Below, one piece after another: positions 57,954 to 60,450 of a stretch of DNA of 64,000 bases. The notes under the pieces are model-generated. The model was given only the letters and a program-made list of their open reading frames with translations. It had not been told where the DNA came from and did not search any database. The number at the start of each line of letters is the position of its first letter. Within the stretch, counting starts at the first letter, position 1. Origin of the DNA: Bryobacterales bacterium (GTDB taxonomy: Bacteria; Acidobacteriota; Terriglobia; Bryobacterales; Bryobacteraceae); assembly GCA_963734625.1 (NCBI GenBank), contig CAVTHW010000008.1, positions 53,715 through 117,714 on the forward strand. The letters are read 5' to 3'. A program made the translations under genes and the position numbers.

Positions 57954-58451
57954 TCAAGAAGGAATGGTGATGTCGCCCGCCCGCCGGGCCTGCTGGGTGA
58001 GGGTCGCAGCGAGCAGTTCCCTAATCGTGCGCTGGAGCAGAGGATGCCGCAGGTCAGGCGCCAGATCGGCCAGCGGCTCGAGGACGAACCGTCGCCCGGC
58101 CATGCGCGGGTGCGGCACGGTGAGCTCCGGAGACCGCATGACGTCGTCGTCCACCAGCAAGATGTCGATATCGATGGGGCGCGGCCCCTTGTTCACCGCC
58201 CGCTTTCGTCCCAACTGCCTCTCGACCTTCTGAACCCGCGTAAGCAGCCGCAGGGGTGGCAGATCCGTCGCGGCCTCGACCACCAGGTTGAGGAACCAGG
58301 GCTGGTCTTTGACATCCTGGGGCTCGGTCTCGTAGACAGGCGAGATTCTGAGCAGGCGCACGTCGGGCCCCTGAAGCAGAACCAGGGCGCCCTGGAGCAT
58401 GTGCTCCCGGTTGCCGACGTTCGAACCGAGCGAGAGGTAGACGGTCTTCAT
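57954..58451 (-). CDS. folK: 2-amino-4-hydroxy-6-hydroxymethyldihydropteridine diphosphokinase
   Basis: YLSLGSNVGNR.., ..SPVYETEP...QPWFLN.., ..RPIDIDILL.., ..PHPRM..R.FVL.PL. Confidence 0.9.
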   Translation of the reverse strand: MKTVYLSLGSNVGNREHMLQGALVLLQGPDVRLLRISPVYETEPQDVKDQPWFLNLVVEAATDLPPLRLLTRVQKVERQLGRKRAVNKGPRPIDIDILLVDDDVMRSPELTVPHPRMAGRRFVLEPLADLAPDLRHPLLQRTIRELLAATLTQQARRAGDITIPS

Positions 58452-58462
58452 GGGCAGACCCG

Positions 58463-58786
58463 GGGAGATTCAACCACAAAGCCACAAAGACACAAAGAGA
58501 ACCATGCTGCCCGTTGTGCCTTTGTGTCTTCGTGGTTCATCTTCCTCTCCCTAAAGCGCAACTCGCCCGATAGGGAGATTCAACCACAAAGCCACAAAGA
58601 CACAAAGAGAACCCTTTTGCTCTTTGTGCCTTGGTGTCTTTGTGGTTCATCTTCTCCTCAAAGTGCAACTGGGTTGACGGGGAGATTTAACCACAAAGGC
58701 ACGAAGACACAAAGAAAACCCTTTTGGACTTTGTGCCTTGGTGTCTTTGTGGTTCATGTTCTCCCTAGAGTGCAACTCGCCTGATG
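58463..58786 (-). repeat. three tandem ~107-bp hairpin modules (units 1-3) downstream of the GxxExxY ORF
   Basis: Units 58463-58572, 58573-58679 and 58680-58786. Each has arms built from (CACAAAGN)x3 and its inverse, plus a ..GTTGCAC(T/C)T-stop stub. Unit 3 carries the real stop at 58765-67. Confidence 0.9.
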
Positions 58787-59166
58787 CCGTGCCGGATGAG
58801 TTGCGTGTTGAAGTTGATCAACAGCCCCAGACGGTGACCCGTCAACTTCAGGTACGTCAACACCTGGGCCTTGTGCACCGGCAAAAGCTGCTCCACGGCC
58901 TTGATCTCCACGATCAGACAGCGGTCTACCACCATATCCAACCGAAGACCGGCATCCAGCCGCACTCCGTCATAGACGACAGGGAGCGAAACCTGCCGCT
59001 GGACATGGCGGTCTCGCTTCTCAAGTTCGTGCCTCAGGCACACCTCATACACACTTTCCAGGAGACCTGGCCCGAGAGCGGAGTGAACGGCGAAAGCAGC
59101 GTCCACGACCGCGGCGGCAGCGTCATTCGCGGCCTCTGGAATCGGCTCTAGCTCTGGTAGGCCCAT
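58765..59166 (-). CDS. GxxExxY protein (PD-(D/E)XK nuclease-like, PDDEXK_3/TIGR04256-type)
   Basis: GLLESVYE motif, ..D.VV....IVEIKAV.. core, ..QVLTYLKLTG..LGLLINF.. tail. 133 aa. Confidence 0.85.
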   Translation of the reverse strand: MGLPELEPIPEAANDAAAAVVDAAFAVHSALGPGLLESVYEVCLRHELEKRDRHVQRQVSLPVVYDGVRLDAGLRLDMVVDRCLIVEIKAVEQLLPVHKAQVLTYLKLTGHRLGLLINFNTQLIRHGIRRVAL

Positions 59167-59455
59167 GACCGTTTCATGCTGCTCTTTGCGCCTTTGTGTC
59201 TCTGTGCTTCATCTTCTTCTCAAAGTGCAACTCGCTTAACAGGAAGATCCCACCATAAAGCCACAAAGACACCAAGAAAGCCATTTTGTTCTTTGTGCCT
59301 TCGTGTCTTTGTGGTTCATCTTCTCCTCAAAGTGCAACTCGCTTAATAGGAAGTTCCCACCATAAAGCCACAAAGACACAAAGAAAGCCATTTTGTTCTT
59401 TGTGCCTTTGTGTCTTTGTGGTTCATCTTCTTCTCAGAACAGCGCCGACTGCCCG
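59167..59455 (-). repeat. half unit + two full hairpin modules (units 4-6) between ruvB and the GxxExxY ORF
   Basis: 59167-59241 (one arm only), 59242-59348 and 59349-59455. In unit 6 the position of the stub stop is the ruvB stop codon (59434-36). Confidence 0.9.
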
Positions 59456-60450
59456 CCGCGGGCTACCCGGAAATGGTCGAAGGCCTTGGCCGTGGCCACG
59501 CGGCCGCGGGGGGTCCTGTCGATGAAGCCAAGCTGGATCAAATACGGTTCGTACACCTCCTCGATGGTGTCGGGTTCCTCGTCGATTGAGGCCGAGATCG
59601 TGTTCAACCCCACCGGCCCGCCGGAGTACTTCTCCAGGATGGTCAGCATGATCTTCTGGTCGATCTCGTCCAGGCCGAAGCGGTCAACTTCCAGCAAATC
59701 CAGGGCGGTCTTGGCGATTCCGGCGGTGATCCGCCCGTCCGCCCGCACTTGTGCGTAGTCGCGCACGCGGCGCAGCAGCCGGTTGGCGACACGCGGGGTC
59801 CCGCGGCTGCGCCGGGCGATCTCCTCGACGCCGCCATCCTCCAGATGCGCGTTGAGCAACCCCGCCGAGCGAACAACAATCCTTTTAAGCTCCTCGACGT
59901 CGTAGTGATTCAGCCGCAACACCAGTCCAAAGCGCCCCCGGAGCGGTGCGCTGACCAGGCCTTGCCGGGTGGTGGCGCCGATGGCGGTGAAATGCGGGAT
60001 CGGCAGCGAATGGGTGCGCGCGCCAGGGCCGGCGCCGATGAGGATGTCCACCCGGAAGTCCTCGAGCGCCGAGTACAGCATCTCCTCGACGTCGGGCAGA
60101 AGCCGGTGGATCTCGTCGACGAAGAATACCTGACGCGCACGGATGTTGCTCAGAATGCCCGTCAGGTCGAGCTTCTTCTGCACGATTGGACCCGAGGTCT
60201 GTTCGAAGCTCACACCCAGCTCGTTGGAGATAATGTTGGCGAGCGTAGTCTTGCCCAGGCCGGGCGGACCGTAGAGCAGCACGTGGTCCATGGCCTCGCC
60301 GCGCTGCCGCGCCGCTTCTATGGCGATGGCGAGGTTCTCCTTCAGCTTGGCCTGTCCGGTAAAGTCGGCCAGCCGCGCTGGACGGAGGCTGACCTCGAAC
60401 TGGCGCTCGTCGTCGAGGGCGGAAGGCGAGACGATTCCCTTTTCACGCAT
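59434..60450 (-). CDS. ruvB: Holliday junction branch migration helicase RuvB
   Basis: LYGPPGLGKTTLA Walker A, FVDEIHRL Walker B, ..ATTR.G..S.PLR.RFG... Confidence 0.95.
   Translation of the reverse strand: MREKGIVSPSALDDERQFEVSLRPARLADFTGQAKLKENLAIAIEAARQRGEAMDHVLLYGPPGLGKTTLANIISNELGVSFEQTSGPIVQKKLDLTGILSNIRARQVFFVDEIHRLLPDVEEMLYSALEDFRVDILIGAGPGARTHSLPIPHFTAIGATTRQGLVSAPLRGRFGLVLRLNHYDVEELKRIVVRSAGLLNAHLEDGGVEEIARRSRGTPRVANRLLRRVRDYAQVRADGRITAGIAKTALDLLEVDRFGLDEIDQKIMLTILEKYSGGPVGLNTISASIDEEPDTIEEVYEPYLIQLGFIDRTPRGRVATAKAFDHFRVARGGQSALF

What the first reader, a model, noticed from the sequence alone, without database searches (positions are those of the whole stretch)
58452..59455. Six hairpin modules carrying GxxExxY 3'-end stubs packed between folK and ruvB around one intact GxxExxY ORF
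folK, the GxxExxY gene and ruvB are all on the minus strand. The ~1-kb gap between the folK start (58451) and the ruvB stop (59434) holds one 133-aa GxxExxY/PD-(D/E)XK-type ORF plus six same-orientation copies of a ~107-bp unit. Read on the coding strand, each unit has four parts. First, about 20 nt matching the 3' end of the GxxExxY CDS (..GAGTTGCAC(T/C)T, translating ..RVAL/..PVAL). Second, a stop (TGA/TAG). Third, GGAGAAGATGAA. Fourth, a ~28-bp imperfect hairpin whose arms are three tandem octamers CACAAAGN and their inverse. Only unit 3 is attached to a real ORF body. Units 1, 2, 4 and 5 carry orphan 'VAL-stop' stubs. Unit 6 sits exactly on the ruvB stop codon. Unit 4 has only one arm and runs straight into the ATG of the intact ORF (..GCAGCATGAAACGGTC-ATG). 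The loop of unit 1 contains the same GCAGCATG, as if an ORF had been lost from inside a hairpin. This looks like repeated gain and loss of a small selfish nuclease cassette, or a MITE derived from it, homing to its own 3' end or to stop-codon-proximal hairpins. I am not aware of a description of this module.
Basis: partly seen in the sequence, partly recalled or inferred. Interest (0 to 1): 0.75.

Follow-up and report, generated by a model that had tools for sequence, protein, structure and literature searches.

The report
Nuclease gene bracketed by repeat hairpins
A small nuclease gene wedged between two housekeeping genes is bracketed by the hairpin-forming repeats that flank this gene family across many bacterial phyla, and the extra "orphan" hairpins here are local duplications; the nuclease-hairpin pairing appears undescribed in the literature I could search.

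Summary
Window 58452-59433 holds one intact 133-aa GxxExxY/PD-(D/E)XK gene, five full hairpin units and one half unit. Four of these units carry a 16-nt copy of the gene's 3' end.

Relatives at the same ruvB-folK locus point to one ancient insertion into a formerly gapless ruvB|folK junction, followed by vertical descent under purifying selection. The array then grew by tandem duplication of a 107-nt segment. Sister genomes have fewer units, a frameshifted gene, or only a gene-less hairpin. Repeated homing is not needed.

The larger result is that the hairpin arms are a family-wide feature.
- Each arm is 2-4 copies of a heptamer C-R-C-N-R-A-G spaced 8-9 nt.
- 64 of 75 GxxExxY genes sampled from metagenomes lie between complementary arms.
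- The same arms without a gene occur as dispersed intergenic hairpins in many phyla. The two Gemmatirosa megaplasmids carry at least 79 copies but only three gene places.
- No Rfam family and no paper matched.

My best reading is a selfish nuclease-plus-hairpin system analogous to REPIN/RAYT, but built on a PD-(D/E)XK nuclease. The mechanism is inferred, not shown.

The parts
59434..60450 (-). ruvB. Its TGA stop (59434-59436) abuts the first hairpin unit.
   Evidence: NF000868 RuvB at E 1e-143. The nearest RuvB relatives are Bryobacterales/Bryobacteraceae.
59343..59433 (-). Unit U6, a full gene-less hairpin. Linker GAAGAAGATGAAC; 5' arm 59397-59420; loop 59385-59396; 3' arm 59358-59384; tail.
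   Evidence: It folds at -35.9 kcal/mol (z -5.05).
59236..59342 (-). Unit U5. Orphan stub plus stop 59327-59342 (GCGAGTTGCACTTTGA); linker; 5' arm 59290-59313; 3' arm 59251-59277; tail.
   Evidence: It closely resembles U6 in alignment A1, which suggests a recent tandem duplicate.
59167..59235 (-). Unit U4, a half unit. Orphan stub plus stop 59220-59235; linker; 5' arm 59183-59206 (CACAGAGACACAAAGGCGCAAAGA); loop-like GCAGCATGAAACGGTC. It serves as the upstream arm of the gene.
   Evidence: In relative L201 the homologous arm follows the ruvB stop directly.
58765..59166 (-). Intact 133-aa GxxExxY protein, a minimal PD-(D/E)XK nuclease. Motif residues are E37 (GxxExxY), D77 and E87-x-K89.
   Evidence: TIGR04256 at E 1e-42 and PF13366 at E 3e-41. 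Invariant columns in the 30-sequence alignment. AlphaFold2 model with pLDDT 93.6. Best PDB fold matches are Cas4 SSO0001 and lambda-exonuclease-like nucleases.
58674..58764 (-). Unit U3, the full hairpin directly after the gene's TAG. Linker GGAGAACATGAAC; 5' arm 58728-58751; 3' arm 58689-58715; tail.
   Evidence: It folds at -43.6 kcal/mol (z -6.98).
58567..58673 (-). Unit U2. Orphan stub plus stop 58658-58673 (CCCAGTTGCACTTTGA); linker; 5' arm 58621-58644; 3' arm 58582-58608; tail.
58452..58566 (-). Unit U1. Orphan stub plus stop 58551-58566 (GCGAGTTGCGCTTTAG); linker; 5' arm 58511-58534; loop containing GCAGCATG; 3' arm 58472-58498; tail running up to the folK ATG.
57954..58451 (-). folK (HPPK). 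In relatives with an empty site it starts 2 nt after the ruvB stop or overlaps it.
   Evidence: TIGR01498 at E 3e-39. L205 reads TGAccGTG and L210 reads GTGA.

Best explanation
The interval is a resident GxxExxY cassette. It is a 130-aa PD-(D/E)XK nuclease gene bracketed by the inverted arms typical of its family. Each arm is 2-4 tandem copies of a heptamer C-R-C-N-R-A-G spaced 8-9 nt, here CACAAAGN three times.

Local history. The cassette entered once, exactly between the ruvB stop and the folK start, in an ancestor of this Bryobacterales clade. It has been inherited vertically since, with the protein and the heptamer cores under purifying selection. The many directly repeated arms then recombined or slipped. 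A 107-nt segment was tandemly amplified on both sides of the gene. That segment comprises the last 16 nt of the gene with its stop, the linker with ATGAAC, the hairpin and the tail, and its amplification produced the orphan stubs. In sister lineages the gene was frameshifted or deleted, leaving a bare hairpin.

General inference. The arms and the nuclease form a selfish or semi-domesticated pair that works like REPIN/RAYT. The nuclease would recognise the repeated heptamers in folded or duplex arms and act on them in trans. Gene-less hairpins would be its non-autonomous satellites, and they reach high copy number in some genomes.

What is shown: the architecture, its breadth, the polymorphism and the conservation. 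What is inferred: the duplication pathway, and above all that the nuclease acts on the arms.
For: Locus history.
- Empty sites occur in L205/L206 (TGAccGTG) and L210 (GTGA overlap).
- L204 has arm-gene-arm. L207 has the gene plus a full hairpin.
- L201 (RuvB 99%) has arm, a gene with a 1-nt deletion inside the catalytic VEIK motif, and a single hairpin.
- L202/L203 (98%) and L250 (91%) have one gene-less hairpin.
- L252/L253 have two hairpins with a stub between them.
- In the ruvB neighbour-joining tree the empty sites are basal and cassette bearers form one clade.
- 4-fold-site identity is 48-59% for ruvB and 37-56% for GxxExxY, while GxxExxY protein identity is 80-87%.
- The 18 heptamer-core positions of the 5' arm are identical between window U3, L204 and L207. 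Only positions 4 and 8 of each unit differ (read).

Family-wide architecture.
- 64 of 75 metagenomic GxxExxY genes have complementary arms 374-594 nt apart.
- The median arm-complementarity score is 16 for a gene's own two arms, 8 for arms paired across loci, and 7 for shuffled sequence (Mann-Whitney p 2e-27).
- Cultured isolates show the same arrangement.
- GxxExxY was the only ORF family found enclosed by arms.

Gene-less hairpins.
- At least 120 loci in many phyla carry the arm pattern.
- At least 40 and at least 39 copies lie on the two Gemmatirosa megaplasmids, against 3 gene places. The gene examined there is flanked by the same arm class, and loops are similar in several copies.
- One hairpin is nested in the loop of another.

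Motif rather than pairing.
- The arm-to-arm mismatch rate is 41% at unit position 4 and 24% at position 8, against 1-6% elsewhere.

Nuclease.
- The catalytic residues are invariant across the alignment, and the fold is Cas4/lambda-exonuclease-like.
Against: - There is no direct evidence that the protein binds or cuts the arms.
- Arm class tracks protein similarity only weakly: 57.3% identity within a class against 54.5% between classes.
- An identical protein (P0079) was always found at one locus, so no recent transposition was caught.
- No target-site duplication is visible at the ruvB-folK insertion.
- The gene is rare on plasmids (8 of 72,556 records at E<=1e-3) and absent from phage records. 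No vehicle for the inferred cross-phylum transfer is identified.
- Loops of gene-less hairpins in some genomes are unrelated to each other and contain no gene remnants. That does not fit simple copy-and-paste.
- In this genome's 64 kb the hairpins occur only at this locus.
- The single-insertion inference rests on a 7-taxon neighbour-joining tree of one gene, with no support values.
Confidence: 0.6

Rival explanations
1. The cassette, or a MITE derived from it, repeatedly homes into its own 3' end or into stop-codon-proximal hairpins. Each orphan stub would mark a separate gain followed by loss of an ORF.
For: - The stubs are real.
- The gene-in-loop architecture is common.
- The nested hairpin in L255 shows that loops can receive insertions.
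- L163 has a 5'-truncated gene copy directly after another copy's 3' arm.
- The gene has been lost or inactivated in close relatives.
Against: - The ruvB tree and equal synonymous divergence indicate one old gain.
- Stubs U5, U4 and U1 begin at the same position and U2 aligns there with two substitutions. All lie in a strict 107-110-nt period. U5/U6 and U1-U3 form two locally similar subgroups, as tandem duplication predicts.
- L201, with 99% identical RuvB, has the gene but none of the extra units.
- No extra ORF fragments longer than 16 nt are present.
Confidence: 0.12
2. An RNA-level device. In the polycistronic ruvA-ruvB-GxxExxY-folK transcript the two arms pair and loop out the inserted cistron. 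This would occlude the cassette's start codon, create an RNase III substrate, or bring the ruvB stop next to the folK start and so restore translational coupling. The arms would then be selected because they make the insertion harmless. This is compatible with the selfish-element reading.
For: - In every locus examined in detail the cassette is co-directional with tightly spaced neighbours. Examples are ruvB|folK, fabD|fabG, radA|FAD protein and Pterin_bind|S-methyl_trans.
- ruvB and folK were adjacent or overlapping before the insertion.
- In this subfamily the 5' arm carries the ATG and is annotated as the N-terminus MNH(K/Q)DTKAQR.
- Wobble-compatible mismatches slightly favour the sense strand, 71 against 50.
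- The units are strongly predicted hairpins.
- No promoter-like or terminator-like site lies in the units.
Against: - Pairing alone does not explain a heptamer core that stays the same across phyla.
- It also does not explain why positions 4 and 8 are frequently unpaired.
- Half of all arm mismatches are non-wobble (131 of 252).
- Gene-less hairpins also lie in divergent intergenic regions (7 of 33 classifiable), and they carry no cistron to insulate.
- There is no Rfam match.
Confidence: 0.2
3. A generic REP-like intergenic hairpin unrelated to GxxExxY, mobilised or maintained by something else such as a RAYT or host factors. The gene would merely tend to sit next to these hairpins.
For: - 118 of 120 arm-selected loci (839 kb) have no GxxExxY gene, and the flanking genes are unrelated housekeeping genes.
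- Gemmatirosa plasmid 2 has at least 39 hairpins and no detectable gene.
- 28 viral contigs carry arms without the gene.
Against: - From the gene side the association is strong, with 85% of genes bracketed by matching arms.
- GxxExxY is the only ORF family found inside arms.
- The RAYT-like gene in L212 is flanked by different GC-rich palindromes, not these arms.
- No E. coli genome carries the hairpin.
- The hairpins have no T tract, so they are not intrinsic terminators.
Confidence: 0.1
4. An integron-like cassette array (a CALIN), with the hairpins acting as attC sites.
For: The hairpin-bearing units form a same-orientation array around a promoterless small ORF. The tail of units U1-U2 reads GTTGAAT, which fits GTTRRRY.
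Against: - The arms flank the gene on both sides rather than one attC following each cassette.
- The inverse core RYYYAAC is not matched (GATGAAC).
- U5 and U6 lack GTT.
- The stems are sequence-conserved octamer repeats across phyla, unlike attC sites.
- Solitary hairpins are dispersed rather than arrayed.
Confidence: 0.02

Closest known systems
REPIN/RAYT systems: REP doublets plus a REP-associated tyrosine transposase (PMC3116915; bioRxiv 10.1101/2021.07.10.451892)
   Same: - A small nuclease-type gene is flanked by inverted copies of a short palindromic repeat.
- The same repeat occurs as gene-less hairpin doublets dispersed in intergenic DNA at high copy (Gemmatirosa).
- At this locus the gene and its flanks are inherited vertically and conserved in place over long times.
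   Different: - The protein is a PD-(D/E)XK (PF13366) nuclease, not an HUH/Y1 transposase.
- The arms are tandem heptamer repeats that are nearly the same across phyla, instead of lineage-specific GC-rich REPs.
- The proteins are 69-75% identical across phyla, which suggests horizontal transfer.
- Tandem and two-domain copies are seen, so the gene is probably not single-copy everywhere.
- A true RAYT with its own REPs sits 1 kb from a GxxExxY cassette in L212 and uses different repeats.
MITEs and their parent insertion sequences
   Same: There are terminal inverted repeats, and a short non-coding version far outnumbers the coding version. Nested insertion is seen (L255).
   Different: - No recognised transposase is present.
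- No target-site duplication was seen.
- The inverted repeats are internally repetitive.
- Loops of gene-less copies are unrelated in some genomes.
Free-standing or intron-borne homing endonuclease genes, including the PD-(D/E)XK enzyme I-Ssp6803I (from my own knowledge, not checked here)
   Same: A small nuclease gene shows presence, absence, pseudogene and loss states at one locus. It has a patchy cross-phylum distribution. Its life cycle of gain, fixation, decay and loss is visible among close relatives.
   Different: - There is no intron or intein.
- No defined empty-allele target is known.
- The gene stayed intact over a span in which synonymous sites became saturated.
- Dispersed gene-less hairpins have no counterpart in homing systems.
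ORF-bearing intervening sequences of 23S rRNA, in which a small ORF is enclosed by a long stem (from my own knowledge, not checked here)
   Same: A small ORF sits in the loop of a long stem formed by flanking inverted repeats, inside a host transcription unit.
   Different: The host context is protein-coding operons rather than rRNA. The ORF family is different. No processing has been demonstrated.

Membership tests
GxxExxY protein (TIGR04256) / PDDEXK_3 (PF13366) | A profile match above the curated cut-off | tested here: met
   145.2 bits against a cut-off of 35. 141 bits against a cut-off of 22.
GxxExxY protein (TIGR04256) / PDDEXK_3 (PF13366) | The GxxExxY motif and a PD-(D/E)XK catalytic D...ExK | tested here: met
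   G34-L-L-E37-S-V-Y40, D77 and E87-I-K89 are invariant in the 30-sequence alignment. The AlphaFold2 model matches Cas4 and lambda-exonuclease-like nuclease cores.
REPIN/RAYT system | The associated gene is an HUH/Y1 (IS200-like) transposase | tested here: not met
   The only Pfam hit is PF13366. A genuine Y1_Tnp in L212 has other flanking repeats.
REPIN/RAYT system | The gene is flanked by inverted copies of the repeat | tested here: met
   64 of 75 loci, plus the window, L204 and L212.
REPIN/RAYT system | Many gene-less inverted doublets of the same repeat are dispersed in the same genome | tested here: inconclusive
   Met for Gemmatirosa kalamazoonensis, with at least 79 places on two megaplasmids. 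For the window's own genome only 64 kb is visible, with no copy outside this locus.
MITE | Terminal inverted repeats and no coding capacity | tested here: met
   The gene-less hairpins have loops of 5-130 nt.
MITE | A target-site duplication | tested here: not met
   Comparing the empty and filled ruvB-folK sites shows no duplicated flank. Elsewhere the flanks are part of the palindrome, so they are uninformative.
MITE | Derivation from an autonomous element that encodes a known transposase | tested here: not met
   The only enclosed ORF family is a 130-aa PD-(D/E)XK nuclease.
Integron cassette / attC | Core sites RYYYAAC ... GTTRRRY, with one attC per cassette | tested here: not met
   GATGAAC does not fit RYYYAAC. 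GTTGAAT fits only in U1-U2. The arms lie on both sides of the gene.
Integron cassette / attC | An adjacent integron integrase, or an attC covariance-model hit | not tested
   No attC model is available among these tools, and the window was not screened for IntI.
Intrinsic terminator | A GC-rich stem followed by a T tract | tested here: not met
   No terminator-like site lies in any unit.
Any Rfam RNA family | A covariance-model match at the gathering score | tested here: not met
   Only sub-threshold generic miRNA-hairpin matches were found.
Homing endonuclease gene | Presence/absence polymorphism at a fixed site among relatives | tested here: met
Homing endonuclease gene | The enzyme cleaves the empty allele, and the gene is copied in by repair | not testable with these tools
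   This needs biochemistry or genetics.

The most novel reading that the evidence does not exclude
GxxExxY nucleases and their CRCNRAG-repeat arms form a previously undescribed class of nuclease-associated palindromic elements spanning many phyla. The class would be functionally parallel to REPIN/RAYT but built on a PD-(D/E)XK nuclease. The protein would recognise the repeated heptamers and mobilise or maintain both its own cassette and a large population of gene-less hairpins. These insert into tight operon junctions and into hairpin loops.
Probability: 0.4. Interest if true: 0.85.

Novelty: new variant of a known kind. Interest (0 to 1): 0.68.

Why it matters
GxxExxY/PDDEXK_3 is a large family of unknown function. 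It has 13,106 clusters at 50% identity with E<=1e-10.

Tying the family to a specific conserved DNA motif gives it a concrete, testable substrate. It would also add a second, mechanistically different nuclease-plus-hairpin system alongside REPIN/RAYT.

The finding explains a recurrent annotation artefact. The arms contain no stop codon in any frame. This creates spurious N-termini (MNHKDTK...), spurious C-termini (...LCLCGFVV) and fused two-domain proteins.

The hairpins also coincide with contig ends in metagenome assemblies, which suggests they break assemblies at these genes. Because the cassettes sit inside conserved operons, they may affect operon expression.

Tried and rejected
- Exact look-up of the window's GxxExxY protein returned nothing, and no accession was available. 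The source genome could not be surveyed beyond 64 kb.
- Rfam gave only generic miRNA-like hairpin hits.
- Literature searches found no description. I tried the family names (GxxExxY, PDDEXK_3, PF13366, TIGR04256), six 15-mers of the arm, and PDDEXK with MITE or hairpin. One broad sequence search was uninformative.
- Clustering of ORFs next to arm-selected hairpins found no recurrent neighbour family.
- Loops of gene-less hairpins showed no GxxExxY remnants above the shuffled background. The idea that every hairpin is a recognisable internal deletion of a cassette was therefore dropped.
- The idea that the 5' arm is always a translated N-terminus was dropped. Of the 31 metagenome loci where a strict 8-nt arm pattern was found upstream, 7 had an adjacent ATG and 5 of those were in frame and open. 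The pattern missed the arms in 49 other loci.
- My first guess was that L202's bare hairpin arose by recombination between the two direct 5' arms. This remains possible but unproven. Its loop (GATTCAGG) could instead be a remnant of the gene's EPIPE-coding start.
- The PDB sequence search found no solved relative.
- PADLOC gave only weak Cas4 hits, and PHROGs gave none.
- Phage and E. coli collections were negative.
- The attC, terminator and RAYT readings were rejected, as set out in the membership tests.
Full report
**1. What is in the window**

On the minus strand the order is ruvB (59434-60450), a 982-nt interval, then folK (57954-58451).

The interval contains one ORF, 58765-59166, encoding 133 aa. 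It matches TIGR04256 'GxxExxY protein' at E 1e-42 and Pfam PDDEXK_3 at E 3e-41.

Around the ORF are five complete hairpin units and one half unit. All share one orientation, with a period of 107-110 nt.

Each complete unit has these parts:
- a linker G(A/G)GAAGATGAAC;
- a 5' arm of three octamers, CACAAAGA CACAAAGG CACAAAGA;
- a 12-nt loop;
- the complementary 3' arm;
- a tail, GAATCTCCC or GGAACTTCC.

Units U5, U4, U2 and U1 are preceded by a 16-nt copy of the gene's last codons plus a stop (GCGAGTTGCACTTTGA and variants). The gene itself ends GCGAGTTGCACTCTAG.

The arm motif occurs 10 times in the interval and nowhere else in the 64 kb, with zero matches expected by chance.

The units fold into long hairpins of -36 to -46 kcal/mol, with z-scores of -4.4 to -7.0. 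No T tract or promoter-like site lies in them, and no Rfam family matches.

The stubs are 16 nt rather than about 20, and there are five full units plus one half unit.

**2. The same locus in relatives**

RuvB homologues place the window in Bryobacterales, phylum Acidobacteriota. I fetched the ruvB-folK junction from relatives.

| Locus | RuvB identity to window | State of the ruvB-folK interval |
|---|---|---|
| L210 | 83% | ruvB and folK overlap (GTGA); empty |
| L205/L206 | 88% | ruvB and folK 2 nt apart (TGAccGTG); empty |
| L204 | 90% | ruvB stop, 5' arm, GxxExxY gene, stop, 2 nt, 3' arm, folK ATG |
| L207 | 87% | gene starts 2 nt after the ruvB stop and is followed by one full hairpin |
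| L201 | 99% | arm, gene, stub, one hairpin; gene has a 1-nt deletion in the catalytic VEIK codons |
| L202/L203 | 98% | only a 90-nt interval holding one gene-less hairpin |
| L250 | 91% | only a 78-nt interval holding one gene-less, degenerate hairpin |
| L252/L253 | 98% | ruvB followed by a full hairpin, then tail and stub; L252 continues into a second hairpin; contigs end inside the array |

A neighbour-joining tree of ruvB puts the two empty-site genomes at the base. All cassette or hairpin bearers form one clade. The tree uses seven taxa and one gene, with no support values.

Between the window and L204 or L207, 4-fold-site identity is as follows:
- ruvB: 59% and 48%;
- folK: 59% and 50%;
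- GxxExxY: 56% and 37%, while the GxxExxY proteins remain 87% and 80% identical.

The cassette is therefore orthologous, old and under purifying selection.

The 18 heptamer-core positions of the 5' arm are identical in window U3, L204 and L207. Only unit positions 4 and 8 differ (sequences). Neutral drift would not leave this pattern.

**3. How the array arose (inferred)**

The gene is flanked by direct repeats of linker, ATGAAC and 5' arm. One copy lies after the ruvB stop and one after the gene's own stop.

Recombination or slippage among such repeats accounts for all the observed states:
- tandem amplification of a 107-nt segment that happens to begin 16 nt before the stop codon, giving U3, U2 and U1;
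- transfer of stub-bearing units upstream of the gene, by unequal exchange followed by deletion of a gene copy, giving U6 and U5;
- loss of the gene.

In alignment A1, U6, U5 and U4 resemble one another most closely, as do U3, U2 and U1. L201 lacks all the extra units. Both facts fit recent local duplication.

Nothing at this locus requires repeated homing.

**4. The arms are a family-wide feature**

Many annotated homologues begin MNH(K/Q/E)(D/G)TK(A/T)(Q/P)R-EPIPE. That peptide is the translation of the 5' arm.

In 80 metagenome loci chosen only by protein similarity, 75 had enough flank to test.
- 64 of these have complementary arms, 374-594 nt apart, enclosing the gene.
- The median arm-complementarity score is 16 for a gene's own two arms, 8 for arms paired across different loci, and 7 for shuffled sequence (p 2e-27).

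Arm 'classes' differ between loci. Examples are CACAAAG/CACGAAG/CACCAAG, CGCAGAG, CGCCAAG, CACGGAG and CACGACG. The two arms of a given locus match each other.

The unit consensus is C-R-C-N-A-A-G-R, spaced 8 or 9 nt apart.

Cultured isolates show the same architecture, always co-directional between tightly spaced housekeeping genes:
- Bacteroides finegoldii: radA | GxxExxY | FAD protein;
- Sphingomonas parapaucimobilis: fabD | GxxExxY | fabG;
- Bernardetia: ade | GxxExxY | a guanylyltransferase;
- Gemmatirosa.

**5. Gene-less hairpins**

These came from Chloroflexota, Cyanobacteria, Acidobacteriota, Planctomycetota, Bacteroidota, Pseudomonadota, Armatimonadota and one archaeon.

In these 839 kb only two GxxExxY genes occur. 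One of them, in L011, sits exactly in the hairpin loop. Neighbouring genes are unrelated.

The hairpins lie in tandem, convergent and divergent intergenic regions (15, 11 and 7 cases), close to the flanking ORFs.

In Gemmatirosa kalamazoonensis one 91-nt hairpin has at least 40 and at least 39 BLAST places on the two megaplasmids. There are three GxxExxY places, all on plasmid 1.
- The gene examined there is flanked by the same arm class.
- Several copies have similar loops.
- One hairpin is nested in the loop of another.

No E. coli genome carries the hairpin. No phage record encodes the protein, and 28 viral contigs carry arms without the gene.

**6. Motif or stem?**

Mismatches between the two arms are periodic. 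In 59 gene-less hairpins the mismatch rate is 41% at unit position 4 and 24% at position 8, against 1-6% elsewhere. Gene-flanking arms show the same trend.

What is conserved is therefore the heptamer core, not perfect pairing. This looks more like repeated protein-recognition sites in inverted orientation than an RNA stem.

Two observations pull the other way or are neutral:
- Wobble-type mismatches favour the sense strand only slightly, 71 against 50, with 131 non-wobble mismatches.
- Arm class tracks protein similarity only weakly.

**7. The protein**

AlphaFold2 gives a confident model with pLDDT 93.6. The best PDB fold matches are Cas4 SSO0001 (TM 0.54), LHK-exonuclease and lambda exonuclease, and the AdnAB nuclease. 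No solved structure is a sequence relative.

The catalytic E, D and ExK residues are invariant.

The family is large: 30,419 clusters at 50% identity with E<=1e-3, and 13,106 with E<=1e-10. It includes many two-domain fusions.

Proteins from different phyla are 69-75% identical to the window protein. Together with the shared arms, this suggests horizontal spread.

**8. Verdict**

The local 'six modules with stubs' are best explained as the product of ordinary recombination within a resident cassette.

The cassette itself exemplifies a widespread association between a PD-(D/E)XK nuclease family and heptamer-repeat hairpins. I could not find this association described.

The closest functional analogue is REPIN/RAYT (PMC3116915; 10.1101/2021.07.10.451892). 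The system fails that family's defining test, because the enzyme is not a Y1 transposase. A true RAYT in L212 uses different repeats.

Whether the nuclease acts on the arms, and whether the arms function in DNA or in RNA, remains to be shown.

Noticed in passing
L077 3090-3640; L212 2487-2972 (and 14 further contigs): In two unrelated lineages a GxxExxY cassette sits between a Pterin_bind ORF and an S-methyl_trans ORF (split MetH-like genes). The gene order is opposite in the two cases.
   Followed up: partly
L212 1000-1620: A 150-aa Y1_Tnp (RAYT-like, HVHLLV motif) is flanked by its own GC-rich palindromes (CCGGGGGCAACGCCCCCGG and its inverted copy). It lies 1 kb from a GxxExxY cassette that uses different arms.
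   Followed up: partly
L255 6363-6532 (Gemmatirosa plasmid 2): A CACGGAG-class hairpin is nested inside the loop of a CGCAGAG-class hairpin. An un-nested copy of the outer hairpin is at L254 41973-42040.
   Followed up: partly
L163 3950-6495: Two GxxExxY paralogues 2 kb apart look nearly identical through the central part of the gene but clearly diverged at the 5' end (by eye). This suggests a gene-conversion mosaic. A 5'-truncated third copy directly follows the first copy's 3' arm.
   Followed up: no
P0241, P0242, P0244 and others: Many 270-295-aa proteins carry two GxxExxY domains. These are probably tandem genes fused. The 5' arm is nearly T-free and the 3' arm nearly A-free, so the arms have no stop codon in any of the six frames.
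   Followed up: no
L252 1260-1400: The 3' flank of the second hairpin (GTGGTTCATCCTCTTCAAAGTGC) is the inverted copy of stub plus linker. The palindrome has therefore been extended outward to include the gene-end stub.
   Followed up: no
L210 1-2404: Two group II intron reverse-transcriptase ORFs (RVT_1 + GIIM) lie upstream of ruvB, where ruvA lies in the relatives.
   Followed up: no
L251 1470-1650; also L008 and L041: Contigs switch to unrelated sequence or end right at an arm. This suggests the arms are repeated elsewhere in those genomes and break metagenome assemblies. Many GxxExxY contigs are only about 1 kb long.
   Followed up: no
window 58537-58668, 58647-58775, 59236-59391 (minus strand): Mechanical ORFs of 42-51 aa (MNHKDTKAQR...LCLCGFVV) span the hairpins. 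They are a by-product of the stop-free palindrome, not evidence of coding.
   Followed up: partly
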